Source of the DNA: Candidatus Dojkabacteria bacterium
Lineage (GTDB): Bacteria > Patescibacteriota > Dojkabacteria > J137
Assembly (NCBI GenBank): GCA_030834985.1
Contig: JAUQWV010000006.1
Span: 76,168-140,167 of the forward strand
DNA length: 64,000 bases
Direction of reading: 5' to 3'
Shown: positions 4,449-61,432 of the stretch, piece by piece
Position numbering within the stretch: position 1 is the stretch's first letter
Layout: each line of letters begins with the position of its first letter
Program-made: the position numbers and the translations under genes
The notes under the pieces: model-generated
What the model was told of the DNA's origin: nothing
What the model saw: only the letters and a program-made list of their open reading frames with translations
Databases searched by the model: none

Positions 4449-5185
4449 TTTTCTACGGAGTTACTGTCCGTTACTATATCAGACCTGCTTGCAATATATT
4501 TTTCCATCAATGGATTTAATGAAGCTTCAATAGGCACACTAGTGTAAAGAGCACGTAAGCTATCGTTACTTGGAGAATTAAACTGGTATTTTACAATATT
4601 AATTTTCAGCTCCCAGCGGTTATTTGTATCTAAGCCGCCCATAGAGCTTAATTGCAATTCTTTGACTACTAAAAAATCCTCAACAGTATTTAAAGCTTGA
4701 ATAAAGCTGACTATATCATTAAAGCTACCTTGAACTGTAAATAAGAAAGGCACTTCTTGCAATATTATTGGCGAATCTAACTTGTTTGTAGAGTCTATTT
4801 CAGCATTTGCCTCGCTTAATCTTTGACTTATTATAGAAAGGTTATTAGATTGAATTAAATCACTAATTCGGTCACGAAATCTTACAACCTCAGTATTTCC
4901 TACAGGAGCAATTCCATCTATTATTGCAAGATCAGAAACTAATATGTTGTACCTTTCAGTTAGAGTATTTAACTTTGTAATTTCTGCATTATTCGCCATA
5001 ATTTCAGTGTTATTTTCTGCAATTAAATCCAGGCTAGAAAAGATCTCACTAATTTTAGGAATTGTAAGAGCAATCAGTATTACAAGAAAAAAGACAATCG
5101 CAAAAATAGGAATTACATACAACCTTATGTATTTAGTAATTTGCCTACTACTAGGCTTTTTTACAATTGGATCCTTATCTTTCAT
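4445..5185 (-). CDS. pilO: type IV pilus assembly protein PilO-like (bitopic inner-membrane component)
   Basis: Single N-terminal TM helix then periplasmic domain. Last gene of the pilM-pilN-pilO series. Confidence 0.55.
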   Translation of the reverse strand: MKDKDPIVKKPSSRQITKYIRLYVIPIFAIVFFLVILIALTIPKISEIFSSLDLIAENNTEIMANNAEITKLNTLTERYNILVSDLAIIDGIAPVGNTEVVRFRDRISDLIQSNNLSIISQRLSEANAEIDSTNKLDSPIILQEVPFLFTVQGSFNDIVSFIQALNTVEDFLVVKELQLSSMGGLDTNNRWELKINIVKYQFNSPSNDSLRALYTSVPIEASLNPLMEKYIASRSDIVTDSNSVEN

Positions 5186-5757
5186 ACATTACTTAAGCTA
5201 AACGATATTATTGCATCTACTTCTTCTGAGTCGACTCGCTGCTGGACGCCTCTGGCAAACACTCCCGAAAGCCGGCTGTCGGCCAGCATCGAGTCGACTA
5301 AAAGCGTTGCAGCATCAACATTCGGCAACCTAAACATCAACACAAATTCACCTGTTGCTTCCCGGGCATAAGTAACTATTTGAGCTCCTGGGTTCTTAGC
5401 TACAATTTCCTGGCTCAAATCAAGCATTTCTGTTAATTTGATATCCCTTCTTAAAACTGGTTCTAATAACTCACTTTTAGTTATAAGTTCACCATGGATA
5501 CGTCTAATATCATCATAGCCATCTAACTGAGATTCCTGAGTAGCTATCTGTTTTTCGGATAACTCAATTCTTTGATTTATTACAAAAGTCTGAATCAAGT
5601 TTAAAATAAAGAATATAAGCATTGCGAAGAATACCAACAAAAAAGAGTAAAGAATAGAGTTATCTCGTTCTTCAAGTACAATAAGCTCCTGCCTTGTTTT
5701 AGGAGGAACCAGGTTGAATTTAAAAACTCTTGTTTGGTCGTAAACACTTACATCCAT
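5182..5757 (-). CDS. pilN: type IV pilus assembly protein PilN-like
   Basis: Short cytoplasmic N-terminus, one TM helix and a coiled-coil periplasmic region. Lies immediately downstream of pilM. Confidence 0.55.
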   Translation of the reverse strand: MDVSVYDQTRVFKFNLVPPKTRQELIVLEERDNSILYSFLLVFFAMLIFFILNLIQTFVINQRIELSEKQIATQESQLDGYDDIRRIHGELITKSELLEPVLRRDIKLTEMLDLSQEIVAKNPGAQIVTYAREATGEFVLMFRLPNVDAATLLVDSMLADSRLSGVFARGVQQRVDSEEVDAIISFSLSNV

Positions 5758-5763
5758 ACAATT

Positions 5764-6813
5764 TTATAAAAGACCTTTCAAAGATAGACCAACAGCTACA
5801 TTAAAGCTGCTTAAATGAATATTTTGTATTTTTTGAGCTAGAGTAGGATCTTGTACAAAGTTAGCCATAAGGTTTGCGTTTACCACTGCAACACCAAGCT
5901 TACTCTGTAAATACTCGTTGTATTTAAGCAAATCAGATCCACCGCCTGTTATAAATACCTGAGCAACACCTGTTCCTCCAATTTTTTCTTTGTAGTAGGC
6001 CATTGTCCTTTGAATTTCAGCTGTTACTATTTGCAGTATTGGCTCAATTGACTTTGCAATTCTACCTTCAGCTTGAGCCGGATCAGCTCCATAAGTAATC
6101 TTATATTTTTCTGCCTGCACCATGTCAACACCTAGGTCAGAGGAAATAACTTTAGTTATCGCATTAGAACCGGTACCTATTGTTTGTGAGAACATTACAA
6201 TACCATTTCTACTCAAAATCACATTTGTACTTTCAGCACCCATATCAACGATCATAATATCCTTATCGGCAACCTGAGGGTAATTGTAAACAATCATTCT
6301 TGTAATTGCTAACGATTCTGTTTCAACTGCAAGGAGTTCAACTCCTGCTGTTTCCATTACTTGCTGATATCTTCCAATTAATTCCTTAGGAGCAGCTACT
6401 ACATACCAATTACTAAAAGTATTACCATCAACTGTTTTCTGATCAATCTCTAAAAAAGATATATTTACATCTTCTAAAGCCATTGGAACTAAAGGCTTTA
6501 AAGCCCATTGAATAGCTTCACCTACTTCTTTATCAGATACCTTTGGTAGGGTAATTAATCTTGAAAAAACTGCACTTTCAGGAACTGACATTACACAATT
6601 TTTCGACTTAATATTAGAGTTTTTCATCGCTTTAGTTACTTCACCTGCCAAAGTTTGAATACCTGTAGGAGAGTCATTATTCAATAATCCAACTGAAGTT
6701 GGAGTAGAGCCGATAGATTGTAGTTTTGCTTTATTATTAGCTCTTTCTATCTCAACTAGCTTGATTGAGAAATGTCCAAGATTAAGTCCAAAAAAAACTG
6801 GTATAGCAGCCAT
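5764..6813 (-). CDS. pilM: type IV pilus assembly ATPase-like actin-fold protein PilM
   Basis: FGLNLGHFSIKLVEI N-terminal motif of PilM/FtsA actin-like fold. 349 aa. Confidence 0.8.
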   Translation of the reverse strand: MAAIPVFFGLNLGHFSIKLVEIERANNKAKLQSIGSTPTSVGLLNNDSPTGIQTLAGEVTKAMKNSNIKSKNCVMSVPESAVFSRLITLPKVSDKEVGEAIQWALKPLVPMALEDVNISFLEIDQKTVDGNTFSNWYVVAAPKELIGRYQQVMETAGVELLAVETESLAITRMIVYNYPQVADKDIMIVDMGAESTNVILSRNGIVMFSQTIGTGSNAITKVISSDLGVDMVQAEKYKITYGADPAQAEGRIAKSIEPILQIVTAEIQRTMAYYKEKIGGTGVAQVFITGGGSDLLKYNEYLQSKLGVAVVNANLMANFVQDPTLAQKIQNIHLSSFNVAVGLSLKGLL

Positions 6814-30853: not shown

Positions 30854-31960
30854 ATGGACCAAACAGAAATCGATAACCTTCTTAAGCAGGTAGATTTAAA
30901 TAAAATTACTAGTGAAATACACGCTTTCGAAAATCAAACAGATACAGATTACTCTTCTAAAGACTATATTGATTCCTTAAAAAAATATAATAAAAATCTT
31001 GAGATTAAAGATCTTCATAACCAAATTTTATCAATATTAAGTAACTTAAAAGATACTAAAGAACTGGCTCAGGATGAGGCTCTTAAAGAGCAAGCAGACA
31101 ATGAGATAGCTTTATTAGAAGAAAACCTAGCTAATTTATACACTAAGTTAGAGTTACTATTAATTGAACCTTTAGAAAATGATGATAAAAAGGCTTTATT
31201 TGAGATTAGACCTGGAGTTGGAGGAGTTGAGGCTGCTTTATTTGCAAATGACCTGCTAGAGATGTACCAAAAATACTGTCTTAAAAATAATTTAAAAATT
31301 GAAGTTTATTCAATCGATTACAATTTAGAAGGCGGTATTAACGAAGCAGTTTTTTTAGTTGATTCAGAAAATAGCTACTCTACTTTCAGATTTGAATCAG
31401 GCGTTCATAGAGTGCAGAGAGTGCCCAAAACAGAGACTTTAGGACGAATACATACTTCCACAGCTTCTGTGGTGGTAATGCCTGAAATAGACCTAAATAC
31501 GGCCGAAATTAGCCCCAATGATTTGCGTATCGACGTCTATCGTTCAAGTGGCCCAGGAGGACAATCTGTCAATACTACAGACTCTGCTGTAAGGATTACT
31601 CATATCCCAACAAAAATTACTGTGACAAGTCAAGCAAGTAAATCACAACACAAAAATAAAGAGATGGCTATGAAGATATTAGCTAGTAGATTATACGAGC
31701 TTGAATCAGAAAAGATTAGCTCCCAGGTTAACACATTACGAGCTGAGTCAATAATGGGAGGCAAGCGTTCTTCTAAAATAAGAACATATAACTTCCCTCA
31801 AGGACGAATCACCGACCATAGAGTCGGTAAAAGCTGGTTTAACATCGAAGAAGTAGTATATGAGGGTGCCCTAGATGATATTCTTGAAATCACTAATCAG
31901 ATTATTAGAACTGGGAAATCTGATAGTACAGAAAATGACGGTGAAGAAGAACTTAAATAA
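30854..31960 (+). CDS. prfA: peptide chain release factor 1
   Basis: SGPGGQSVNTTDSAVRITHIPT GGQ motif. Tripeptide region RVQRVPKTETLGRIHTS is RF1-like, with PKT in place of PAT. Confidence 0.85.
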   Translation: MDQTEIDNLLKQVDLNKITSEIHAFENQTDTDYSSKDYIDSLKKYNKNLEIKDLHNQILSILSNLKDTKELAQDEALKEQADNEIALLEENLANLYTKLELLLIEPLENDDKKALFEIRPGVGGVEAALFANDLLEMYQKYCLKNNLKIEVYSIDYNLEGGINEAVFLVDSENSYSTFRFESGVHRVQRVPKTETLGRIHTSTASVVVMPEIDLNTAEISPNDLRIDVYRSSGPGGQSVNTTDSAVRITHIPTKITVTSQASKSQHKNKEMAMKILASRLYELESEKISSQVNTLRAESIMGGKRSSKIRTYNFPQGRITDHRVGKSWFNIEEVVYEGALDDILEITNQIIRTGKSDSTENDGEEELK

Positions 31961-34087: not shown

Positions 34088-34369
34088 TTAGTCTTTTTTA
34101 ATTAATAATGCTCTTAAAACGTCAGGATTAAGTCTTAATTCTTTTCTAAATTCACTTGATTTAGCTGAGGATAGTTCTACATCGTAAAAGTAGTAGAAAC
34201 CTTCTTTAAATTTATTGATTGGATAGGCTAGCATTCTCTTGCCTAAGTTAGTGCTCAATTTAATATTTCCGCCTAAATCCTTTACATTTGATTCAACCTT
34301 AGGAAGAACCTTTTCTTTAATATCTTCTGTACTAAGTGGCTTTAACACTAATGCTAATTCGTACTTCAT
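34088..34369 (-). CDS. rpsF: 30S ribosomal protein S6
   Basis: MKYELALVLKP N-terminus. rpsF-ssb-rpsR order conserved. Confidence 0.85.
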   Translation of the reverse strand: MKYELALVLKPLSTEDIKEKVLPKVESNVKDLGGNIKLSTNLGKRMLAYPINKFKEGFYYFYDVELSSAKSSEFRKELRLNPDVLRALLIKKD

Positions 34370-49375: not shown

Positions 49376-50443
49376 ATGAAAGTTCACTCTCCATTCATAT
49401 ACCTATTACTGCTTAGTTTCTTAGAACAAAGATTAAGCATCCTACTATTATTAGCTATTAATGCGATATCCCTGTCTGTATTCAAAACAATAAGACCAAC
49501 CTTACGCTTAACTGCTCTATTTTTTATCTTTATCCTAACCAAATATATACTTGAATTAAATTTATTACAGTCGATGTTCACAACGCTAAACAGTACGTTG
49601 TCACATAGTCTTACCAGCCAAATTACTGATCTATTCGATACAAATCACGCACAATTTTTAATCGGGATTACAATAGGAGGCTCTAATGTAGATTTAAATC
49701 AAGATCTAAAAAATCTATTTAAAAAGTTTAATCTACTTCACTTAATAAGTGTATCAGGAGCAAATTTTATTTTAATTAATGAATTAACTAATCCACTAAA
49801 AAAATATCTAGGATACTATCGAATATTGATAACCAATTTAATAGTAAGCTCTTACTATATATTTGCCATAGGTTTTAGCAATCTACCGGCTTCAAGAGCG
49901 TTTTTATTTTCCAGCTATGATAATATAGCCGCGCTTTCCGGAAGACCCATTAAGTTTTTTAACAAACTGCTTTTGAGCTTATGCGTTATTTCTTATAGCA
50001 GCCCAACATTGTTATTCGAGCGATCTTTAATTCTAAGCATTGGATTCACTCTACTATACAAATCATTTGGGCTACCTAAAATAAAAACGCTCTTCGATAA
50101 CGAACTTCTAAAATTGGCTACAATTTTTATTATCTCAGCTACTATCTTCGGGAACGAAAATCCCGACTTTTTAGCCAACTTACTATTATCAGTTATCTAC
50201 CCAATTTTGTTTATAGGTACGTTTACTATATACATAACCTCTATTATCGGCGCAGAATTATTAGCAGACGTAACTTATAGAGTTATTAATATAATTCTCG
50301 ATTTCATATTTGAATATTTAGGAGCTCTTTCAAGTACCGAAAATACGTATTTACAGACGATGCTGTTCTTAGCTATTTTGGCTATCTTTGTTTATAAAAT
50401 TGTAAAAAATAAATATCGTGGATATCAGAATATTGCTCAATAA
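49376..50443 (+). CDS. comEC: ComEC/Rec2 competence-channel domain (membrane part). It may continue from a 56-aa upstream fragment in another frame (49245-49415).
   Basis: ComEC competence-domain motif FNLLHLISVSGANFILI. Polytopic membrane protein. Confidence 0.7.
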   Translation: MKVHSPFIYLLLLSFLEQRLSILLLLAINAISLSVFKTIRPTLRLTALFFIFILTKYILELNLLQSMFTTLNSTLSHSLTSQITDLFDTNHAQFLIGITIGGSNVDLNQDLKNLFKKFNLLHLISVSGANFILINELTNPLKKYLGYYRILITNLIVSSYYIFAIGFSNLPASRAFLFSSYDNIAALSGRPIKFFNKLLLSLCVISYSSPTLLFERSLILSIGFTLLYKSFGLPKIKTLFDNELLKLATIFIISATIFGNENPDFLANLLLSVIYPILFIGTFTIYITSIIGAELLADVTYRVINIILDFIFEYLGALSSTENTYLQTMLFLAILAIFVYKIVKNKYRGYQNIAQ

Positions 50444-51278
50444 TGTTGTAATTATTTTGCTTATAGCACTACTTCCGCTCGCTATTGATAAAGTAGTACT
50501 ACTATTTAATAGCGACCAGATAACGTTTCTAAATATTGGACAAGGAGATTCAATTCTTATTTGTAACCAATTCAAAAAGTGCGGTCTTATAGATACAGGC
50601 AAGCAAAATTCTGTGATTAACAAGATCAAAAAATACACCAGTCCTCCATTAGAGTTTCTTATATTAACTCATCCTGATTTAGACCATACAGGTAAAACTT
50701 TAGAGATACTTAAAGAGATAGGTGTTAGAAGAATATTCGTTAATGAAAGCTCGAAAGCGCGAGAAATTATTAAATCTATCCAACAGGTGCAAGTCCGCGC
50801 TTTCGAGCTCAAATCACATAACGATTTCATATTTGGAAACTATAAATTCGACATATTCTGGCCTCTTCCAGACACCGAGCTAGATTCTCTAGACAGCAAC
50901 GAAACATCTATTAGTATAGTTTTACACAACCAAAATCACCGCTTCTATTTAGCCGGCGATTTGGGTACAAAATTAGAAGATGAAAACCAAAAACAATATG
51001 GCTTAAATTCAATAACAGTAGCTAAATTAAGCCATCATGGTAGCAAGAACTCCTCCAGTTTATCCTTATTAAAAAGCCTTGCTCCAGATGTAGCTATCTT
51101 TTCAGTTGGAAAAAATTCCTATGGCCATCCTAATATACGGGTAATTGAAGATTTAAATATTCTAAAAATCCCATTTTTAAGAACAGATCTAGATGGAGAT
51201 ATACAAATCAAAATTAAAGAGCAAAAGCTCCAAATCGATACTGAAAAAAGCAAAAAATCATATATAATATTGAATTAA
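50418..51278 (+). CDS. comEC: ComEC C-terminal metallo-beta-lactamase-fold domain, separate ORF in +1 frame overlapping the previous one by 26 nt
   Basis: ITFLNIGQGDSILI and LILTHPDLDHTGK (HxHxDH MBL motif). SHHGSKNSS downstream. Confidence 0.7.
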   Translation: MDIRILLNNVVIILLIALLPLAIDKVVLLFNSDQITFLNIGQGDSILICNQFKKCGLIDTGKQNSVINKIKKYTSPPLEFLILTHPDLDHTGKTLEILKEIGVRRIFVNESSKAREIIKSIQQVQVRAFELKSHNDFIFGNYKFDIFWPLPDTELDSLDSNETSISIVLHNQNHRFYLAGDLGTKLEDENQKQYGLNSITVAKLSHHGSKNSSSLSLLKSLAPDVAIFSVGKNSYGHPNIRVIEDLNILKIPFLRTDLDGDIQIKIKEQKLQIDTEKSKKSYIILN

Positions 51279-54724: not shown

Positions 54725-54766
54725 AAGCAGGTTAGTTTATATTAAGGTAAACAACCTGCTTTTTTA
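54725..54766 (+). terminator. intrinsic terminator after rplL
   Basis: AAGCAGGTT...AACCTGCTT stem followed by TTTTTT. Confidence 0.75.
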
Positions 54767-54776
54767 ATTAATATAT

Positions 54777-55511
54777 ATGGATATTATTTGGAATTTGCTA
54801 CTACAAAGAGGCATGAGCCCGGTAGAAATTGATCTATACAAGGAGGTATTTATTATCTTAATAATGCTTCCTGTTGTTACTACAATTGTAGGTATCGCAA
54901 GATATGTAATAGGAACTAGAACTCTTGGCATGTTTACACCTGTGATAATAACTTTCCTGCTCTATGAGTTTGGTAGAATTGGAACCGAACAAGATATTCT
55001 TCGAGCACTTAAATATGGAATTATTTTCTTTTTAATTGTTCTAATTGCAAGTTGGCTCAGCTACAAAATATTAAAACGTGTCCGAATGAACTATATCCCT
55101 AAGCTCACATTAGTGACCATCGGTGTAATAGTCGCGTTATTCTTGTCATTTATTGTTTCGGGCATATTAGGATTTACAGGGCCAGTATTTATAAACAAGT
55201 TTACTTTGGTTATTTTAGCTATATTAGTGGAGCCGTTTGCATCAGCCTTTGCCAGAAAGAGTTTTAGCTATGGCGTCTCCTCTGCTATTGATACATTCAT
55301 ACTTTCAGCGTTTTGTTACATAATCATATCACTAACTAAGGTACAGGAATTTGCAGAGGCTAACCTACTAGTAATTCCTGTACTAATAATTGTGAATATT
55401 TATTTAGGCAGATTTACAGGCTTACGCTTAAGTGAGTATTTAAGGTTCCGAAATATATTATTTTCAGACAACAAGGCGAGTGATAATGATACAAATAAGC
55501 AAAGTAATTGA
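54777..55511 (+). CDS. seven-helix (7TM) integral membrane protein. Candidate stand-alone homologue of the 7TM module that accompanies RimK-like ATP-grasp / QEGLA-type systems.
   Basis: Seven hydrophobic ~20-aa segments in 244 aa. Polar C-terminal tail. 3' end overlaps the next gene by 32 nt. Confidence 0.5.
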   Translation: MDIIWNLLLQRGMSPVEIDLYKEVFIILIMLPVVTTIVGIARYVIGTRTLGMFTPVIITFLLYEFGRIGTEQDILRALKYGIIFFLIVLIASWLSYKILKRVRMNYIPKLTLVTIGVIVALFLSFIVSGILGFTGPVFINKFTLVILAILVEPFASAFARKSFSYGVSSAIDTFILSAFCYIIISLTKVQEFAEANLLVIPVLIIVNIYLGRFTGLRLSEYLRFRNILFSDNKASDNDTNKQSN

Positions 55512-56934
55512 AAACAGAAAATTAGTACTAGGGCGTAATGAACGATATCTAAAATACATTAGACCGCATAACTTAAGCCGTGCTACAAAAATTGCAGATG
55601 ACAAAATTCTTACAAAAAGGATTTTGAATAAAGCTGATATACCCGTCCCCAAATTAGTTAAAGTGATAAAAGATAGAAGCCAATTAAATAGCTTTGACTT
55701 TGCTTCATTACCTAAAAGTTTTGTAATAAAACCTGTTAAAGGAGTTCGTGGAGGCGGAGTGACAATCATATATAATCGTGCAAAAGACGGTAAATGGATA
55801 GGATCAAGTAATAAAAGATTCTCGGAAGAAGATTTAAGATCCTTAATACAAGATATTTTAGATGGCCGGTACTCTCTTTTTAATGAACCAGATAGAGTTT
55901 TGATAGAAGAACGAGTACGTCCGCATAAATCTTTTAAATACTATTCGTACAAAGGCGCGCCCGATGTACGGATTATTGTGTTTAATTCTATTCCAATTAT
56001 GAGTTATATACGCTTGCCTACCAAAGAATCTAACGGGCGCGCCAACTTAGATCTAGGAGCAATAGGTGCAGGTATTGATATGGCAGTTGGAAAAACAACC
56101 GGAGCTATAATTGGAAAATCTACCCCTATAGAATATGTCCCAAATACCAATTTAGCCTTATCTGGATTAAAAATTCCATATTGGGACCGAATACTAAGAT
56201 ATGCAGTTGAAGCAAGTAAATTAACAAAACTAGGTTTTGCTGCTATCGATTTTCTAATTGATGAAGATAAAGGCCCACTAATTGTAGAGTTAAATGCCCG
56301 ACCAGGATTATCCATTCAGCTGGCAAATGAAGACGGTCTACGATGGAGATTAAAAAAAGCATCTGATATACGCGTAAAAACTACTGAGCGTGCTGTTAGA
56401 CTAGCTAAAGATCTATTCGGAGGCGAAATTGAAGAAGAAATTGAAAGTATTTCAGGTAAACAAGTTATTGGCTTACTTGAAGAAGTAAAAATATTTAATT
56501 TAGATGGTGAAAGTTTTGAACAGGTAACTGCCAAGATCGATACTGGAGCTTCGTTTACCTCGTTAGATACTGAGCTAGCTATAAAGTTGGGCATGCAGGA
56601 AGTTATTGAATTTGCAAAACCGATTCTAGAATCTATCCCTAAAAACTTTGAAACAGTAGATGAGCTTAAAAAATACTCTGCTGATAACCAACTAGAAGAA
56701 CGGTTAGAGCAACATCCTCTAATTGTTGATACTGCTATAATAAAATCTAGTAATGGCTTGGATTACAGAATTATAGTACCTATGAAGTTTCAGATTTCAG
56801 GTCTTGATGTCGAATCAAATGCTACTATTGCTAATAGAACTAACCTTAATTACAAACTAATTCTTGGAGAAAAAGATCTTAAGAAATTTCTAATAGATCC
56901 TAGTAAAAAATTAATATTAAAGCTTAAAAATTAA
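55480..56934 (+). CDS. Fusion of a RimK-related ATP-grasp amidoligase (alpha-L-glutamate-ligase-related type) with a C-terminal retropepsin-like aspartic-protease domain (RimB/COG4067 type)
   Basis: N-terminus NERYLKYIRPHNLSRATKIADDKILTKRILNKADIPVP and ATP-grasp core. C-terminus VIGLLEEVKIFNLDGESFEQVTAKIDTGASFTSLD, with DTGA at nt 56539-56550. Confidence 0.65.
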   Translation: MIMIQISKVIENRKLVLGRNERYLKYIRPHNLSRATKIADDKILTKRILNKADIPVPKLVKVIKDRSQLNSFDFASLPKSFVIKPVKGVRGGGVTIIYNRAKDGKWIGSSNKRFSEEDLRSLIQDILDGRYSLFNEPDRVLIEERVRPHKSFKYYSYKGAPDVRIIVFNSIPIMSYIRLPTKESNGRANLDLGAIGAGIDMAVGKTTGAIIGKSTPIEYVPNTNLALSGLKIPYWDRILRYAVEASKLTKLGFAAIDFLIDEDKGPLIVELNARPGLSIQLANEDGLRWRLKKASDIRVKTTERAVRLAKDLFGGEIEEEIESISGKQVIGLLEEVKIFNLDGESFEQVTAKIDTGASFTSLDTELAIKLGMQEVIEFAKPILESIPKNFETVDELKKYSADNQLEERLEQHPLIVDTAIIKSSNGLDYRIIVPMKFQISGLDVESNATIANRTNLNYKLILGEKDLKKFLIDPSKKLILKLKN

Positions 56935-56936
56935 TC

Positions 56937-58436
56937 ATGGATTTTATTATACAGCAGGCTGTTGGATCTGATATTAAAGTGTTACTTGAGCTAAAAGATC
57001 AGGTTAGACTGCACACATACAAAGAATTTATCCCAGATCTTAAGTGGGAAGATATTAAGTACAACGAAACTTATGATGCAAGGGCGCAAAAGATAATAAG
57101 CCAATTTCAGGAAAAAAAAGTTTTCATCTTTTGCGCCAAAGATAATTCTCAAAATATTCTAGGCTATATAAAAATTATCCACAGAGGTTCCATAGTAGAA
57201 ATACAGGATTTATTTATTATCCCTACTGCTCAAGGAATGGGAATTGGATCACAACTTATGATTAAAGCTTGGGACTTATTTAAAGACCAGGATTCTGTAT
57301 GGCAGCTTAAAGTTAATGTACTCGAAAATAATACAAAGGCAATTGAATTCTATAAAAAACACGGCTTTGCTCCAGATATGGGCAGAATTTTCTACTATAA
57401 AATTGGAGATAATAAAAAAGCTAATACAATTAAAATGTATAAATTAAACGAGAAAACTACATCTCAGTTTTTACAATCGGCAAGGCTTATTTTAAATAAT
57501 TTTGTCGAGAACAATATTCCTATAATTGAAGTTGACCCATTATCAAATAGTTATATTGTATCTGTAAATGGCAACTATATTTACTCTCGAGGTATACTAA
57601 CACCACTCAATACTCTATCGGCATCTCATTTAGCAAATGATAAATTAACTAGCAAAAAAATCTTACAGTTTTTTAGAATTCCTACCCCTGATTATTTATG
57701 TTTTAGAAAGAAAGAAAATACAGATATAAAAGAAATTAGACTAAAGCTTGAAGAATTTTTACAAAAACATAGCAGGATTATCGCTAAACCACAAAACGGG
57801 CTTAAAAGCAAAGATGTATTTTTGAATATTCAAAATGTTAATCAGGCGCTGGAAGCTTATAATCATATTATTAATAAAGAATATAAAGGCGTTTTATTTG
57901 AAAGCTTTGCTGAAGGTGATGTTCATAGACTGCTCTTAGTTGACGGGACCCTTATAGCTGCACTAAGACGTGAAAAAGGCTACATTATTGCCGATGGTAT
58001 TAGCACACTTAATCAATTAATAACTCAAAAAAATCAGTATTTAGATCATGGAGGTAGAAATGTAGGCAGAATTAGAATTGATGAGAAATTGAATGCTGTA
58101 CTTAAAGATCAAGGATTTGATTCGTTAGAAGATGTACCTGCAAAAGATACTAAAGTATTTACAGAAATAGATTTTAGCAACCTTGAAACTGTTACAGAAG
58201 TTACTGACATTGTAAGCCCAGCATTAACACAAAAGCTATCTGGCTTAGCAAATAAGATCGGCCTTGGGCTAACAGGAATCGACGTTATCTCCACAGATAT
58301 TTCTGATGAGGGTAAATGCAGTATTATTGAAATCAATAAAGAGCCAAGCATCGATTTTCATCATTATCCCGATTACGGAGAAGCTAAAGATGTTGCAGGA
58401 GAGATTGTCAGGGCAATAATCAGGAAATACTCTTAA
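56937..58436 (+). CDS. GNAT N-acetyltransferase fused to ATP-grasp amino-acid ligase domain (architecture like Ngg, the N-acetylglutaminylglutamine synthetase)
   Basis: GNAT motif A IQDLFIIPTAQGMGIGSQLM...YKKHGF (aa 1-160). ATP-grasp core HLANDKLTSKKIL...IIAKPQNG...VLFESFAEGDVHRLLLVDG...ADGISTLNQLI...IIEINKEPS. Confidence 0.65.
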   Translation: MDFIIQQAVGSDIKVLLELKDQVRLHTYKEFIPDLKWEDIKYNETYDARAQKIISQFQEKKVFIFCAKDNSQNILGYIKIIHRGSIVEIQDLFIIPTAQGMGIGSQLMIKAWDLFKDQDSVWQLKVNVLENNTKAIEFYKKHGFAPDMGRIFYYKIGDNKKANTIKMYKLNEKTTSQFLQSARLILNNFVENNIPIIEVDPLSNSYIVSVNGNYIYSRGILTPLNTLSASHLANDKLTSKKILQFFRIPTPDYLCFRKKENTDIKEIRLKLEEFLQKHSRIIAKPQNGLKSKDVFLNIQNVNQALEAYNHIINKEYKGVLFESFAEGDVHRLLLVDGTLIAALRREKGYIIADGISTLNQLITQKNQYLDHGGRNVGRIRIDEKLNAVLKDQGFDSLEDVPAKDTKVFTEIDFSNLETVTEVTDIVSPALTQKLSGLANKIGLGLTGIDVISTDISDEGKCSIIEINKEPSIDFHHYPDYGEAKDVAGEIVRAIIRKYS

Positions 58437-59298
58437 AATATTCATCCAAATACTTTAAGACAGTAAAATCATGTCTAAATGCTGGGGCAGGATTTACTTC
58501 AAACAGATATATTTTTGAATTTTTATTAGAAACTACAACATCTACACCTGCTACTTGTAAATTTTTTACCTTTGCAGCTTTTACTGCAATTTCTGATATT
58601 TCAGGAAAGTCCTCTGGTTTTAAATACTCTACTTCTGCTCCTAAAGATACATTGTTTCTAAACTCAGCAGAATCTTTATTTCTAACTCTTTTTTTCACTA
58701 CTGCTACTTTTTCGCCGAAAACTACAAATCGATAATCAAAATCATTAGGAATCAATTCTTGAATAAAATAGTATTCATCTTTTAGCTCTTCTTTAATCTT
58801 TACATAGTCATCAAATGAATTAAGCAGATAGACACCTTTCCCTTCATTGCCTCTAGTAGCTTTTAACACTGCAGGGTAACCGCCAAGCTTTTGTATATGG
58901 GATTCTAAATTCTCATCAAGAAGTCTTTTATGAATAATAAATGTTGCAGGTAAATTCAGGCCATTCGTAATTAATAAGTAGTGTTGGTGTATTTTTGAAC
59001 CGTAATTTGAAAGTCCTACTGCACTGTCAGCAAATTTTTTTGAATGTTTGATTAAGTGTTTAGCTAAAGTGGAAGCTATATCAGGGCGTTTTTCCCACGT
59101 TCTGAAATAGATGAAATCGTAATCTAAAATATTTACACCATCAATTGTTACAGTAATAGGATCTCTAAAATCAAAGATTACATCATCCAGATAACCTATT
59201 ATATAAGTATTTCCTGTTTCCTGCCCGTACTTATTAAAGTAATCTATAAAGTCAGTATCGTAAGGCTGTCTTCCTGCTTTCAGTACAAGTATTTTCAT
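58420..59298 (-). CDS. RimK/LysX/GshB-family ATP-grasp ligase
   Basis: KIHQHYLLITNGLNLPAT, YPAVLKATRGNEGKGVYLL, YFIQELIP, DYRFVVFGEKVAVVKKR, LQVAGVDVV, LFEVNPAPAF. Confidence 0.7.
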   Translation of the reverse strand: MKILVLKAGRQPYDTDFIDYFNKYGQETGNTYIIGYLDDVIFDFRDPITVTIDGVNILDYDFIYFRTWEKRPDIASTLAKHLIKHSKKFADSAVGLSNYGSKIHQHYLLITNGLNLPATFIIHKRLLDENLESHIQKLGGYPAVLKATRGNEGKGVYLLNSFDDYVKIKEELKDEYYFIQELIPNDFDYRFVVFGEKVAVVKKRVRNKDSAEFRNNVSLGAEVEYLKPEDFPEISEIAVKAAKVKNLQVAGVDVVVSNKNSKIYLFEVNPAPAFRHDFTVLKYLDEYFKSIS

Positions 59299-59323: not shown

Positions 59324-61432
59324 ATGAATTATATTACAAAAGGTATGAGCTTAGAAGCTATAAATCCTCAAGAAAGAAGCCCTGAATTAATTCCAATAGA
59401 AAGAGCTCAGCTAGAAATAATCCAACTTGGTGAAAATATAGCTAAAGAAATAAAGAATCTGAAAGAAGCTTCTAAAGTAATGATCATAATCACTGCCATA
59501 TTTAATAATAACCTTGATTTCTCTAATCCTGAATTAGTAAGCTTAGAAATTGATAATGTAAGAAAATCTCTATTAGAAATATGCGACAATGCCGAAATTC
59601 CTGAGCCGGAAGCGATCTTGCAGCTAAAAGAAATCATACAAAGTTTTGATTTTGGATCTCCTTTAGATTTAAAAGAACTTATATCTAAGATTGACAAGCT
59701 GTTGTTAGAAGTCATTAAAAATGAATCTATTCCCTTAACAGCAAAGAGCAAATTCTTCCAGAAAATTAAAGGTATTTGTGAAGTAAATCATCAAAATAGT
59801 GTTGCCAATAAAATTCAAATGACTGAATCAACAATATCATTATCTCAAGATATGCCGCTTCCAGTTAATGTTAGCTATATTTTAAATCCCGAGATGATTT
59901 CAGAAAGAGATGCTGCGCTAAGACGATTAAAGAATAGTATACAGACTCAGGAATCACTACTATTTCAATACTCTGCAAGTGAATACATTGAAAAGATCCA
60001 TGGAACTGATCTAATTGATGCTGAAGAGGAGTATTACAGACAGTCAGAGTTTTATAACTCTAATAAACCAGAGCTAGTAGAAAATACAGTCCCTAAAAAC
60101 AAAAAGGAAGGCTACCCTCTTGAACTCATAGTGATTCTTAAAGGCGGGCCTAAAGAAGTTACTTTTCGCCAACTGAATATGGCTAAAATACAATTATTAA
60201 GAATCTATCGTGAATTTATTAATACCTTAATAACTACAGAAATCATTGATAATAGAATTATTGAAGAACAATTATCAGAACTTGAAAATTCTTTACGAAT
60301 AGGAATAGATGAAACCTCAGAAGCTGAAATTAAAAGACGAAAGCAAACCAGACGAATCTCATTATTTGACATGCTACATATGGGTACCGTTGCAGCAAAT
60401 AAAGTTAACCCAAATATGACTTCAGAAAATCAAGTTCCACTATCGCAAGAAGTTTTAGATTATACGGGAGGAACAAAGCCAGCAAATACTTCTAGAGAGC
60501 TTTTTATAAGTAAATTAACCAAAGAGCAAAGAAGAAGGTTTGAAGTGTTAGAGTCTTTAAAAGACTATCAGTTTGATGAGACTCAAGATGGAATTCCAAG
60601 TCGGATTTATAGAAGATTCATAGAAAAACTTGGAATAGCTACCCCACTTGAAGATGTAGATGAACAATTGGAATTATCTGAAAAGAAAATACCTAACAAT
60701 AAATTTAAAACATACACTATTAAAGTTAGACCTGGTGGCACAGTAGCGGTCGACCATGGGTTTAGAACAATTTTAATTCCCAGAACTTGGAAACCTAAAT
60801 TATCAAGTATTTTAATATCTATCCAACATGAGATTGGCCACGTTGCACAACAATTATCACGAGATCAGAGCTTTCTGCCTGGTGTTAATATTTTAAGCGG
60901 ACTTGGCAGATCAGGCACATTAGCCGAAGCTGGAGCAATAAAATCTGAAGCCTTAATGGCAGAACTTCTAATTAAAGAACGCGAAATTAATACTTATCAT
61001 GTAAGTATTGTAAAAGGAATTATTGAAGGAAAAAACTATTGGGAACTAGTTGAAATGGTATTAAAGACTCTTTTTGAAAGGAATATTAGAAATAATGAAA
61101 ATAAATCAAAAGAAGAGCTAGCCAGAACTGCTATTAAAACTGTCAATAGAGCCTACTCCTCTTTAGGCGCAATGGGAAACAAGACAGATCCACATGGACG
61201 ATATCCGACCTATGCTGGATTTCTATCATATACTTACCAAGGCTTGCCAGAGTTTAGCCAGCAGCCATTTTATATAAGTGGTATTCCTGCACACAGAATA
61301 GATCTCCAAGAGTTTATGCCACAACCTCAAATTGAAGGTGTCCCAATTACAGAAGAACTAATAGCAGAAATTATAATAGATGCAGCCTACGAAGTCTTAG
61401 CAGAAAATGGGATTATAAATACAGCTAATTAA
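59324..61432 (+). CDS. 702-aa protein with C-terminal HExxH zincin-like metallopeptidase domain (possibly DUF1704/MATCAP/QEGLA-family-like); N-terminal ~480 aa unassigned
   Basis: ISIQHEIGHVAQ (HEIGH at nt 60827-60841). Candidate third ligand in KSEALMAE ~40 aa downstream (nt 60941-60964). Confidence 0.5.
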   Translation: MNYITKGMSLEAINPQERSPELIPIERAQLEIIQLGENIAKEIKNLKEASKVMIIITAIFNNNLDFSNPELVSLEIDNVRKSLLEICDNAEIPEPEAILQLKEIIQSFDFGSPLDLKELISKIDKLLLEVIKNESIPLTAKSKFFQKIKGICEVNHQNSVANKIQMTESTISLSQDMPLPVNVSYILNPEMISERDAALRRLKNSIQTQESLLFQYSASEYIEKIHGTDLIDAEEEYYRQSEFYNSNKPELVENTVPKNKKEGYPLELIVILKGGPKEVTFRQLNMAKIQLLRIYREFINTLITTEIIDNRIIEEQLSELENSLRIGIDETSEAEIKRRKQTRRISLFDMLHMGTVAANKVNPNMTSENQVPLSQEVLDYTGGTKPANTSRELFISKLTKEQRRRFEVLESLKDYQFDETQDGIPSRIYRRFIEKLGIATPLEDVDEQLELSEKKIPNNKFKTYTIKVRPGGTVAVDHGFRTILIPRTWKPKLSSILISIQHEIGHVAQQLSRDQSFLPGVNILSGLGRSGTLAEAGAIKSEALMAELLIKEREINTYHVSIVKGIIEGKNYWELVEMVLKTLFERNIRNNENKSKEELARTAIKTVNRAYSSLGAMGNKTDPHGRYPTYAGFLSYTYQGLPEFSQQPFYISGIPAHRIDLQEFMPQPQIEGVPITEELIAEIIIDAAYEVLAENGIINTAN

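What the first reader, a model, noticed from the sequence alone, without database searches (positions are those of the whole stretch)
55480..56934. ATP-grasp ligase covalently fused to a retropepsin-like (D-T-G-A) protease domain
Residues 1-300 have the hallmarks of the RimK-related alpha-L-glutamate-ligase-like ATP-grasp subfamily. They start with ...RYLKYIRPHN...ADDKILTKRIL..ADIPVP and include a Gly-rich loop KGVRGGGV and a C-terminal ELNARPG. Residues ~320-484 carry VIGLLEEVKIFNLDG...AKIDTGASFTSLD. This is the signature of the RimK-associated retropepsin-like domain (COG4067 / PF05618, historically called a putative ATP-dependent Zn protease), with the catalytic Asp in DTGA. In described systems ligase and protease are separate proteins (rimK, rimB). 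A single-chain ligase-protease implies obligate coupling of tail synthesis and proteolytic editing. I do not recall this architecture.
Basis: partly seen in the sequence, partly recalled or inferred. Interest (0 to 1): 0.7.

Follow-up and report, generated by a model that had tools for sequence, protein, structure and literature searches.

The report
Fused Rlo-type peptide ligase and retropepsin
One gene in this candidate-phyla (Patescibacteria) genome really does join an ATP-dependent peptide ligase to a retrovirus-like aspartic protease, and with its membrane partner it is a compact version of the recently described bacterial Rlo stress-tolerance system, interesting but not a new kind of machine.

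Summary
ORF 55480..56934 (+; likely start ATG 55486) encodes an RloC-type ATP-grasp ligase (PF14397 205 bits, TIGR02291 259 bits). A disordered acidic linker joins it to a PF05618 retropepsin-like domain whose D-T-G-A and psi-psi-Gly motifs are invariant in orthologues and whose model best matches the RloA crystal structures.

A ligase-protease hybrid, RimBK, was published in 2025 with the protease at the N-terminus of a true RimK. The homologous rloABC operon was also described in 2025.

This locus differs in three ways:
- The ligase is RloC-type and the protease is C-terminal, with no signal peptide and no cysteine.
- The gene directly upstream (54777..55511) is the 7TM half of RloB without its transglutaminase-like domain.
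- This two-gene module is conserved in 78 of 80 Patescibacteria species loci.

Three of the four RloA residues that contact poly-Glu pseudosymmetrically (K352, R430, R453) are invariant.

Most likely function: a cytoplasmic, membrane-docked enzyme that builds an acidic (probably alpha-glutamyl) peptide chain and trims it.

Verdict: new variant of a known kind, of moderate interest.

The parts
54725..54767 (+). Hairpin plus U-run directly after rplL, likely an intrinsic terminator. It separates the ribosomal-protein operon from the module.
   Evidence: RNA fold -17.3 kcal/mol, z = -5.15 against 200 shuffles, followed by UUUUUU. The consensus scan missed it, probably because of the bulge in the stem.
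54777..55511 (+). Gene for a 244-aa 7TM membrane protein. It is homologous to the C-terminal 7TM half of RloB, with no transglutaminase-like domain. Its 3' end overlaps the start of the fused gene by 26-32 nt.
   Evidence: PF14402 63.8 bits. NCBIfam RloB profile positions 312-506 of 508. 26% identity, E 1e-14, to residues 305-503 of Legionella RloB. About seven hydrophobic segments and a conserved C-terminal G-x-[FWY]-x-G-x-R-L-x-E-x-x-R-F tail shared with Legionella RloB. Present directly upstream of the fused gene in 78 of 80 loci.
55480..56934 (+). Fused ligase-protease gene (484 aa from GTG 55480; 482 aa from the likelier ATG 55486).
55516..56418 (+). RloC-type ATP-grasp ligase domain (residues 13-313).
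   Evidence: TIGR02291 258.6 bits and PF14397 205.4 bits. 38% identity over the whole 314-aa Legionella RloC, which ends at the position of window F313. K84, E143, D257, E270, N272 and R274 are invariant. D257/E270/N272 align with the RimK VD...EVN segment. The AlphaFold model is confident, and the nearest solved folds are ArgX, LysX and RimK.
56419..56454 (+). Acidic linker G-G-E-I-E-E-E-I-E-S-I-S (residues 314-325). It is predicted to be disordered yet is nearly invariant.
   Evidence: pLDDT is below 50 for residues 316-325. F313, G314, G315, I317 and E318 are invariant and E316, E319 and E322 are at least 90% conserved in 31 orthologues. The motif is still conserved in 73 species representatives, though one of the search patterns was this motif. 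An acidic variant is present in divergent fused proteins that were found with a query lacking the linker. It is absent from standalone RloC and from standalone 115-165-aa proteases.
56455..56916 (+). Retropepsin-like (PF05618 / RimB-RloA family) protease domain, residues 326-479.
   Evidence: PF05618 36.8 bits against a cut-off of 27. Domain model pLDDT 91.3. Top Foldseek PDB hits are RloA2 9g59, RloA 9g58 and Lpg0085 2pma, followed by foamy-virus and HIV-1 proteases and Ddi1. The domain profile against PDB sequences gives 9g58 E 1.7e-9 and 9g59 E 2.6e-8. 30% identity, E 2e-7, to Legionella RloA.
56539..56550 (+). Catalytic motif D354-T-G-A357, preceded by K352.
   Evidence: Translation. Invariant in 31 orthologues. 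K352 aligns with RloA K46, two residues before the catalytic Asp (PMC12239564).
56596..56706 (+). Three-helix insertion (residues 373-409) between the post-DTGA strand and the flap hairpin. It is variable in sequence and absent from the PF05618 consensus and from RloA.
   Evidence: Secondary structure of both models. Lowest column conservation in the protein, 0.27-0.34. RloA aligns here with beta-strand sequence and gaps.
56937..58436 (+). Accessory gene, lineage-specific: GNAT acetyltransferase fused to a cyanophycin-synthetase-like ATP-grasp domain (499 aa). It starts 3 nt after the fused gene.
   Evidence: PF00583 52 bits. TIGR02068 156.8 bits over residues 176-496. TIGR03103 119.6 bits. 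All NCBIfam scores are below cut-off. An extra ATP-grasp gene lies downstream of the fused gene in 35 of 63 loci that have enough flank.
58420..59298 (-). Accessory gene, lineage-specific: RimK-family ATP-grasp ligase (292 aa), convergent with the previous gene and overlapping it by 17 nt.
   Evidence: PF08443 72 bits. TIGR00768 98.8 bits, below the cut-off of 143.4.
59324..61432 (+). Possible accessory gene: a 702-aa protein with an H-E-I-G-H motif and no family assignment.
   Evidence: No Pfam hit even at E <= 1. Only four homologues in the 5.8-billion-cluster search. A local match to the MATCAP-like part of a ligase-retropepsin-MATCAP fusion is weak (E 8e-4 pairwise) and not significant by profile methods.

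Best explanation
The gene is the ligase and protease of an Rlo-type system written as one polypeptide. The 7TM gene upstream is the third component.

Shown:
- The N-terminal domain is homologous to RloC, the C-terminal domain to RloA/RimB, and the upstream protein to the 7TM half of RloB.
- The pair is conserved as an overlapping two-gene unit across Patescibacteria.
- Catalytic residues of both enzymes are invariant.

Inferred:
- The whole enzyme is cytoplasmic. It has no signal peptide or hydrophobic N-terminus, and no cysteines, as in cytosolic RimB.
- It docks on the cytoplasmic face of the 7TM protein, possibly on that protein's conserved C-terminal R-L-x-E-x-x-R-F tail.
- The ATP-grasp domain uses ATP to add amino acids, most probably alpha-linked glutamate, to a carboxylate. 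This builds an acidic tail or free polymer.
- The retropepsin domain pairs with a second copy to form the Asp-Asp dyad. It holds the acidic chain in a basic channel (K352, R430, R453) and cuts it.
- Synthesis and trimming are therefore tied together at the membrane.

Patescibacteria are thought to lack an outer membrane and periplasm (general knowledge). I read the loss of the extracytoplasmic transglutaminase-like domain of RloB, and the move of the protease from the periplasm onto the ligase, as the same system collapsed onto the cytoplasmic side.
For: - Domain assignments.
- Homology to each of the three Legionella rloABC products: 38% identity over full-length RloC, 30% identity to RloA (E 2e-7), and 26% identity to the RloB 7TM half (E 1e-14).
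- Invariant DTGA, psi-psi-Gly and ATP-grasp Mg/ATP residues.
- Retropepsin fold with RloA structures as the best matches.
- K352, R430 and R453 align with RloA K46, R114 and R137. The R-to-R spacing is 23 in both. The paper reports that alanine substitutions at the poly-Glu-coordinating residues lowered poly-Glu cleavage.
- There is no Cys in the domain. Periplasmic RloA carries a conserved disulfide that cytosolic RimB lacks.
- The 7TM gene lies directly upstream in 78 of 80 loci, usually overlapping or within 30 nt.
- Every named source is Patescibacteria: Dojkabacteria, Woesebacteria, Roizmanbacteria, Moranbacteria, Paceibacteria, Jacksonbacteria, Parcubacteria and Elulimicrobium.
- Independent fusions join the same three parts in other ways. 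One protein has a TM anchor, two retropepsin domains and the 7TM region, and is followed by an ATPgrasp_ST gene.
- Genetics in P. aeruginosa: loss of rloB or rloC suppresses the rloA1-3 triple mutant, which places the protease downstream of the ligase and membrane protein.
Against: - No product or substrate of any RloC-type ligase is known, so glutamate as the building block is an extrapolation from RimK and from the protease's specificity.
- TIGR02291 scores below its curated cut-off, and the RimB/RloA equivalog models score far below theirs (17-26 bits against cut-offs of 200-280). The domains are therefore a separate subfamily and may have a different specificity.
- The fourth pseudosymmetric poly-Glu contact of RloA (R92) could not be mapped, because a three-helix insertion replaces that region.
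- Dimerisation, membrane docking and catalysis were not testable here.
- The relative orientation of the two domains in the model is uncertain (pTM 0.61).
- In other variants the protease is extracytoplasmic, so a cytoplasmic site of action is not universal for the system.
Confidence: 0.55

Rival explanations
1. Polyprotein reading. The fusion is a precursor. The retropepsin domain cuts the conserved acidic linker, as retroviral proteases free themselves from Gag-Pol. The ligase and protease then work as separate proteins, and cleavage may leave a Glu-rich C-terminus on the ligase.
For: The linker F-G-G-E-I-E-E-E-I-E is predicted to be disordered yet is among the most conserved stretches of the protein. 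An acidic stretch precedes the protease domain in other fusion contexts, including a LysRS-retropepsin protein. It is missing from standalone proteases and from standalone RloC. The related proteases cut Glu-rich sequence, including internal sites.
Against: RloA did not cut substrates with six or fewer Glu, and RimB needs five to six contiguous Glu. The linker has only three in a row. More divergent fused proteins have differently composed linkers. There is no experimental evidence.
Confidence: 0.15
2. Rim-type reading. It is a cytoplasmic ribosomal-protein tail system like RimK/RimB, adding and removing glutamates on S6 or another ribosomal protein.
For: The protease is cytoplasmic and Cys-free like RimB. 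The module sits directly after rplJ-rplL here and in 39 of 71 loci. RimK, ArgX and LysX are the nearest solved folds of the ligase domain. A RimBK fusion exists.
Against: The ligase is TIGR02291/PF14397-type (259 and 205 bits), not RimK (58 and 41 bits). The 7TM partner is nearly universal, and Rim systems have none. S6 of this genome (34088..34369, minus strand) ends ...LLIKKD with no Glu-Glu end. The rplL neighbourhood is limited to the Dojkabacteria-like loci and is interrupted by a strong terminator hairpin.
Confidence: 0.1
3. Regulatory-domain reading. The retropepsin domain mainly binds the acidic product and stimulates or gates the ligase, as RimB stimulates RimK, and proteolysis is secondary or lost.
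For: RimB binds RimK and raises its ATPase activity and poly-Glu synthesis. RimBK showed protease activity but no detectable RpsF glutamylation, so coupling in the fusions is not simple.
Against: D-T-G-A, the psi-psi-Gly motif and the basic channel residues are all invariant over sequences that are otherwise only about 35-55% identical in this domain. That is the pattern expected of an active enzyme.
Confidence: 0.1

Closest known systems
rloABC operon of Pseudomonas aeruginosa / P. fluorescens (Rlo, retropepsin-like osmotic stress tolerance; mBio 2025, PMC12239564); canonical copy also on a Legionella adelaidensis plasmid (L086)
   Same: All three parts are homologous: the RloC-type ATP-grasp, the RloA-type DTGA retropepsin with conserved basic channel residues, and the PF14402 7TM region of RloB with its C-terminal R-L-x-E-x-x-R-F tail. 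The genes are adjacent and overlapping.
   Different: - There are two genes instead of three, with order B then C::A instead of A-B-C.
- The protease is fused to the C-terminus of the ligase and lacks the signal peptide and the disulfide cysteines, so it is cytoplasmic rather than secreted.
- RloB is reduced to 244 aa and lacks the N-terminal anchor and the inactive transglutaminase domain.
- The protease carries a three-helix insertion.
- The taxon is Patescibacteria, whereas 96% of RloB hits in the paper were Proteobacteria.
RimBK hybrid enzyme (Desulfotalea psychrophila DP2392 / Q6AKK4; J Biol Chem 2025, PMC11957791)
   Same: One chain carries a PF05618 retropepsin domain and an ATP-grasp peptide ligase. 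The protease part is cytoplasmic and was shown to cut poly-Glu tails. A relative appears in my survey (P0193).
   Different: - The domain order is opposite: the protease is residues 1-163, N-terminal.
- The ligase is a true RimK (PF08443), not RloC-type.
- No 7TM partner is reported.
- It is found mostly in Flavobacteriales and Rhodobacterales.
RimK/RimB (with RimA) of Pseudomonas fluorescens
   Same: An ATP-grasp alpha-L-glutamate ligase is paired with a retropepsin-like endopeptidase that removes what the ligase adds. Both are cytoplasmic.
   Different: The proteins are separate. The target is S6 with a Glu-Glu end, which this genome's S6 lacks. There is no membrane component. The ligase belongs to a different subfamily.
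Tubulin tyrosine ligase / MATCAP (and TTLL / CCP) tail-editing cycles of eukaryotes
   Same: By analogy, an ATP-grasp ligase writes a C-terminal tail and a dedicated peptidase erases it. Relatives of this very gene are fused to a PF08014 MATCAP-type domain (P0129, P0209, L052, L056).
   Different: The window gene itself has no MATCAP domain, and the neighbouring 702-aa HEIGH protein could not be shown to be one. Nothing here suggests cytoskeletal substrates.

Membership tests
PF05618 / RimB-RloA retropepsin-like aspartic peptidases | Match to the family profile above its curated threshold | tested here: met
   36.8 bits against a cut-off of 27. All 31 orthologues match.
PF05618 / RimB-RloA retropepsin-like aspartic peptidases | D-T/S-G-A catalytic motif and a downstream hydrophobic-hydrophobic-Gly, both conserved in orthologues | tested here: met
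   D354-T-G-A357 and L-I-L-G463 are invariant.
PF05618 / RimB-RloA retropepsin-like aspartic peptidases | Retropepsin fold | tested here: met
   The pLDDT 91.3 model gives Foldseek probability 1.00 to RloA2, RloA, Lpg0085, HIV-1 protease and Ddi1.
PF05618 / RimB-RloA retropepsin-like aspartic peptidases | Homodimer that forms the Asp dyad; endopeptidase activity | not testable with these tools
   Only single-chain prediction is available. There is one DTG per chain.
RimB or RloA1-3 equivalogs (NCBIfam NF052261-NF052264) | Score above the equivalog cut-off | tested here: not met
   17-26 bits against cut-offs of 200-280. It belongs to the wider family but not to these named orthologue groups.
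RloC / TIGR02291 alpha-L-glutamate ligase-like ATP-grasp | Best match among the ATP-grasp families and full-length similarity to RloC | tested here: met
   258.6 bits against 58 bits for the RimK family. 38% identity end to end with Legionella RloC.
RloC / TIGR02291 alpha-L-glutamate ligase-like ATP-grasp | Score above NCBI's curated cut-off | tested here: not met
   258.6 bits against a cut-off of 314.2.
rloABC system | RloB: inactive transglutaminase domain fused to 7TM | tested here: not met
   Only the 7TM half is present, at profile positions 312-506 of 508. The protein has 244 aa.
rloABC system | RloA: separate secreted protein with a signal peptide and a disulfide | tested here: not met
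   It is fused behind the ligase. There is no hydrophobic N-terminus and no Cys in the domain.
rloABC system | The three components are encoded together | tested here: met
   The 7TM gene overlaps the fused gene, and this holds in 78 of 80 loci.
RimBK hybrid | RimK-type ligase (TIGR00768 / PF08443 as the main match) with an N-terminal RimB domain | tested here: not met
   The RimK family scores 58 bits against a cut-off of 143.4. The protease is C-terminal.
ATP-grasp superfamily (active enzyme) | ATP-binding Lys, Gly-rich loop and Mg-binding D/E/N | tested here: met
   K84, G88, G91, G93, E143, D257, E270, N272 and R274 are invariant. They align with the RimK active-site segment. The fold matches ArgX, LysX and RimK.

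The most novel reading that the evidence does not exclude
Across Patescibacteria, a minimal two-gene machine sits at the membrane. A 7TM protein works as the conduit or anchor. A single chain on its cytoplasmic face both polymerises and meters an acidic (alpha-glutamyl) chain. The conserved acidic linker serves as a built-in pseudo-substrate or self-cleavage switch for the protease.

In other lineages the same protease is found outside the membrane, either free or fused to the 7TM protein. The chain would therefore be a translocated polyanion that can be reached from both sides. This would give the first mechanistic handle on what Rlo systems make, in organisms with no periplasm.
Probability: 0.2. 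Interest if true: 0.65.

Novelty: new variant of a known kind. Interest (0 to 1): 0.45.

Why it matters
The Rlo system was described only in 2025. It affects osmotic tolerance, biofilm formation, cell shape and antibiotic susceptibility in Pseudomonas, but nobody knows what RloC makes or what RloA cuts in vivo.

A natural RloC-RloA fusion is 'Rosetta stone' evidence that the two enzymes act on the same molecule. A complementary RloA-RloB fusion elsewhere points the same way.

This version has no periplasmic parts. That shows the 7TM core, the ligase and the protease are the irreducible set, and that the protease can do its job from the cytoplasmic side.

The fused soluble enzyme would also be a convenient single protein for biochemistry.

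It adds one more widely conserved, unexplained membrane-associated module to the small gene sets of Patescibacteria.

Tried and rejected
- Assembly or frameshift artefact: rejected, because intact fused ORFs occur in more than 70 species representatives.
- Anti-phage defence: none of the five neighbouring proteins gives a PADLOC hit.
- The 702-aa HEIGH protein as a MATCAP/DUF1704 peptidase: there is no Pfam hit at E <= 1. A four-sequence MATCAP profile gives 7.8 bits, E 0.011 among 114 window ORFs. hhalign probability is 1%. This is left open.
- Consensus terminator scan after rplL: it found nothing. Direct folding shows a strong bulged hairpin followed by a U-run.
- Candidate acceptors: I looked for a small carrier or precursor gene or an acidic-tailed protein in the window. 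There is no room for a small ORF inside the cluster. S6 ends in KKD. Two large ORFs in the window have an acidic C-terminal stretch (ends at 31960 and 39011), two shorter hits look non-coding, and none lies near the module.
- Structure comparison against the AlphaFold database, for an architecture and taxon survey: that library was not available.
- The 2009 amidoligase survey by Iyer and colleagues could not be read. From memory, it predicted the ATP-grasp / 7TM-transglutaminase / pepsin-like peptidase neighbourhood. Whether it lists this exact fusion is unchecked.
Full report
**1. What is there**

- It opens with GTG. An ATG two codons later (55486) gives the 482-aa form of a 99%-identical database protein and follows an AAGG/AGGCGA Shine-Dalgarno-like stretch.
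- Either start overlaps the stop of the upstream gene (55511) by 26-32 nt.
- The window has about 33% G+C. By its closest relatives it comes from a Candidatus Dojkabacteria (WS6) genome in the Patescibacteria / candidate phyla radiation.

**2. The two domains**

Ligase domain:
- Residues 13-313 are an ATP-grasp ligase of the RimK-related TIGR02291 / PF14397 type: 258.6 and 205.4 bits, against 58 and 41 bits for the RimK models.
- The domain is 38% identical over the full length of a canonical RloC from a Legionella adelaidensis plasmid. That RloC ends exactly where the window protein reads ...DLF313.
- The ATP-binding lysine, the glycine-rich loop and the Mg-binding D257/E270/N272 are invariant in 31 orthologues. 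They align with the active-site segment of E. coli RimK.
- The AlphaFold model is confident (mean pLDDT 83.4). Its nearest solved folds are ArgX, LysX and RimK, all of which extend protein C-termini.

Protease domain:
- Residues 326-479 match PF05618 above threshold (36.8 bits against 27), as do all 31 orthologues. Four of these also hit retroviral gag-aspartyl-protease models.
- D354-T-G-A and the downstream L-I-L-G463 are invariant.
- A separate model of this domain (pLDDT 91.3) finds the crystal structures of RloA2 (9g59), RloA (9g58) and Lpg0085 (2pma) first. Foamy-virus and HIV-1 proteases and Ddi1 follow.
- A profile of the domain finds the same RloA sequences at E 1.7e-9 and 2.6e-8.

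**3. Details that bear on function**

- In RloA of P. aeruginosa, K46, R92, R114 and R137 make pseudosymmetric contacts with a modelled octa-glutamate. The paper reports that alanine substitutions at the poly-Glu-coordinating residues reduce cleavage (PMC12239564).
- In the alignment, the invariant K352, R430 and R453 of the window protein occupy the positions of K46, R114 and R137. The two arginines are 23 residues apart in both proteins.
- R92 could not be placed, because a variable three-helix insertion (residues 373-409) replaces that region.
- The domain has no cysteine. Periplasmic RloA proteins carry a conserved disulfide that cytosolic RimB lacks.
- The fused protein has no signal peptide or hydrophobic N-terminus.
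- The two domains are joined by G-G-E-I-E-E-E-I-E-S-I-S. This segment is predicted to be disordered (pLDDT below 50) yet is among the best conserved stretches of the protein.
  - It is absent from standalone RloC and from standalone 115-165-aa proteases.
  - An acidic equivalent precedes the protease domain in divergent fusions, including a lysyl-tRNA-synthetase fusion.

**4. The neighbourhood**

- The gene directly upstream (54777..55511) encodes a 244-aa protein with about seven hydrophobic segments. It matches PF14402 and the last 200 positions of the RloB model, with 26% identity (E 1e-14) to the C-terminal half of Legionella RloB. This is RloB without its membrane anchor and inactive transglutaminase domain.
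- I fetched 80 species-representative loci that encode relatives.
  - All are full-length fusions or are cut by contig ends.
  - 78 have this 7TM gene immediately upstream, usually overlapping or within 30 nt.
  - All source names that identify a lineage are Patescibacteria: Dojkabacteria, Woesebacteria, Roizmanbacteria, Moranbacteria, Paceibacteria and Elulimicrobium. More divergent fused clusters come from Parcubacteria and Jacksonbacteria.
  - Labels such as 'uncultured Gammaproteobacteria' on some third-party MAGs are attached to the same kind of locus. I do not trust them.
- The position right after rplJ-rplL holds in 39 of 71 loci, those of the Dojkabacteria type. Here a strong hairpin with a U-run follows rplL.
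- Extra ATP-grasp ligase genes follow the fused gene in 35 of 63 loci.
  - In this window they are a GNAT / cyanophycin-synthetase-like fusion and a RimK-family gene.
  - A 702-aa HEIGH protein of unknown family comes next.
  - In a 63%-identical relative none of these is present, so they are accessories rather than core parts.

**5. Other architectures**

A search of 1.84 billion representative proteins with the protease domain alone, followed by domain scans, shows that this domain is shuffled among partners:
- ligase-retropepsin, the form found here;
- ligase-retropepsin-MATCAP-type metallopeptidase;
- ligase-retropepsin-second ATP-grasp;
- ligase-retropepsin-YdjC;
- retropepsin-RimK, the published RimBK type;
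- a protein with a membrane anchor, two tandem retropepsin domains and the 7TM region, followed by an overlapping ATPgrasp_ST gene.

In that last form the protease takes the place of the transglutaminase-like domain of RloB, so it lies outside the membrane. The protease is thus free in the periplasm in Pseudomonas, tethered outside in one variant and tethered inside in this one.

**6. Best explanation and rivals**

I read the locus as an Rlo-type system reduced to two genes.
- A cytoplasmic bifunctional enzyme works at a 7TM membrane partner.
- Its ligase builds an acidic chain, probably alpha-glutamyl.
- Its retropepsin domain, acting as a dimer, cuts that chain.

The homology and the conserved pairing are shown. 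The chemistry, the docking and the dimerisation are inferred. The genetic result that loss of rloB or rloC suppresses the rloA triple mutant fits a protease that removes the product of the other two.

Rivals:
- A self-cleaving polyprotein. The linker makes this attractive, but three consecutive Glu are fewer than RimB or RloA need.
- A Rim-like ribosomal tail system. This is weakened by the ligase subfamily, by the universal 7TM partner, and by an S6 that ends ...IKKD.
- A mainly regulatory protease domain. This is weakened by the invariant catalytic motifs.

**7. Comparison with the literature**

RimBK, a retropepsin-RimK hybrid with demonstrated protease activity, was published in 2025 (PMC11957791).
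- The homologous three-gene rlo operon was published in the same year (PMC12239564).
- Neither paper describes a C-terminal fusion to an RloC-type ligase or a transglutaminase-less RloB.
  - The rlo paper found RloB almost only in Proteobacteria.
  - The RimBK survey used only reference genomes with at most 15 contigs, which I expect would exclude most Patescibacteria MAGs.
- No paper in the library combines Patescibacteria, ATP-grasp and RimK.
- The proteins themselves are already in public databases under automatic names such as 'ATP-dependent zinc protease' or 'sugar-transfer associated ATP-grasp domain-containing protein'.

I therefore class this as a new variant of a known kind, of moderate interest. 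Its main value is as comparative evidence about how Rlo systems work.

Noticed in passing
window 59324..61432 (+): A 702-aa protein with an H-E-I-G-H motif has no Pfam or NCBIfam family and only four homologues (39-100% identity) in the 5.8-billion-cluster search. In a 99%-identical strain (L005) it is broken into 144-aa and 295-aa ORFs with the middle missing. Its local similarity to the MATCAP-like part of P0129 around the HExxH motif is weak and not significant by profile methods.
   Followed up: partly
L052:5980-8322, L056:5986-8322; proteins P0129, P0209: Triple fusions join an RloC-type ligase, a retropepsin domain (divergent in L052 and L056) and a PF08014 MATCAP-type metallocarboxypeptidase domain (121-148 bits; 45 bits in P0129). 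One chain carries a tail-adding ligase together with two different peptidases.
   Followed up: partly
protein P0122; L088:5001-7323: This protein has an N-terminal membrane anchor, two tandem retropepsin domains (the first with DTGA, the second with DSGS) and the PF14402 7TM region ending in the same R-L-S-E-L-V-R-F tail. An overlapping ATPgrasp_ST gene follows, and then a glutamate dehydrogenase gene. It may be a pepsin-like pseudo-dimer taking the place of the transglutaminase-like domain of RloB.
   Followed up: partly
protein P0231: A class I lysyl-tRNA synthetase (PF01921, 284 bits) carries a C-terminal retropepsin-like domain. The domain is preceded by M-E-I-E-E-E-V-K-E-T-T-G-K-K-I-I-G, the same acidic lead-in as in the ligase fusions.
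   Followed up: no
window 56937..58436 (+) and 58420..59298 (-): A GNAT acetyltransferase is fused to a cyanophycin-synthetase-like ATP-grasp domain. It resembles N-acetylglutaminylglutamine synthetase (TIGR03103, 119.6 bits, below cut-off). It converges on a RimK-family ligase gene and overlaps it by 17 nt. With the fused gene this makes three ATP-grasp ligase genes in 4 kb.
   Followed up: partly
window 34088..34369 (-): Ribosomal protein S6 is only 93 aa long and ends ...RALLIKKD, with no acidic tail. The canonical RimK acceptor (a Glu-Glu C-terminus) is therefore absent from this genome.
   Followed up: yes
window 54725..54767 (+): A bulged 15-bp hairpin with a U-run lies right after rplL (-17.3 kcal/mol, z = -5.15). 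The consensus terminator scan missed it.
   Followed up: yes
window 49376..51278 (+): The ComEC-like competence protein is encoded as two overlapping ORFs. One is a 355-aa membrane part and the other a 286-aa ORF (50418..51278). The same split, into a PF03772 Competence part and a metallo-beta-lactamase (PF00753) part, is annotated in the 99%-identical L004 and in L001; a related genome (L002) keeps the two genes adjacent on the opposite strand.
   Followed up: no
L087 (Halobacterium sp. DL1 plasmid CP007061.1, locus 5001-5840): An unannotated stretch on an archaeal plasmid encodes an RloC-like ligase (37.7% identity over residues 16-297, E 3e-41). RloC-type ligases therefore also occur in haloarchaea.
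   Followed up: no
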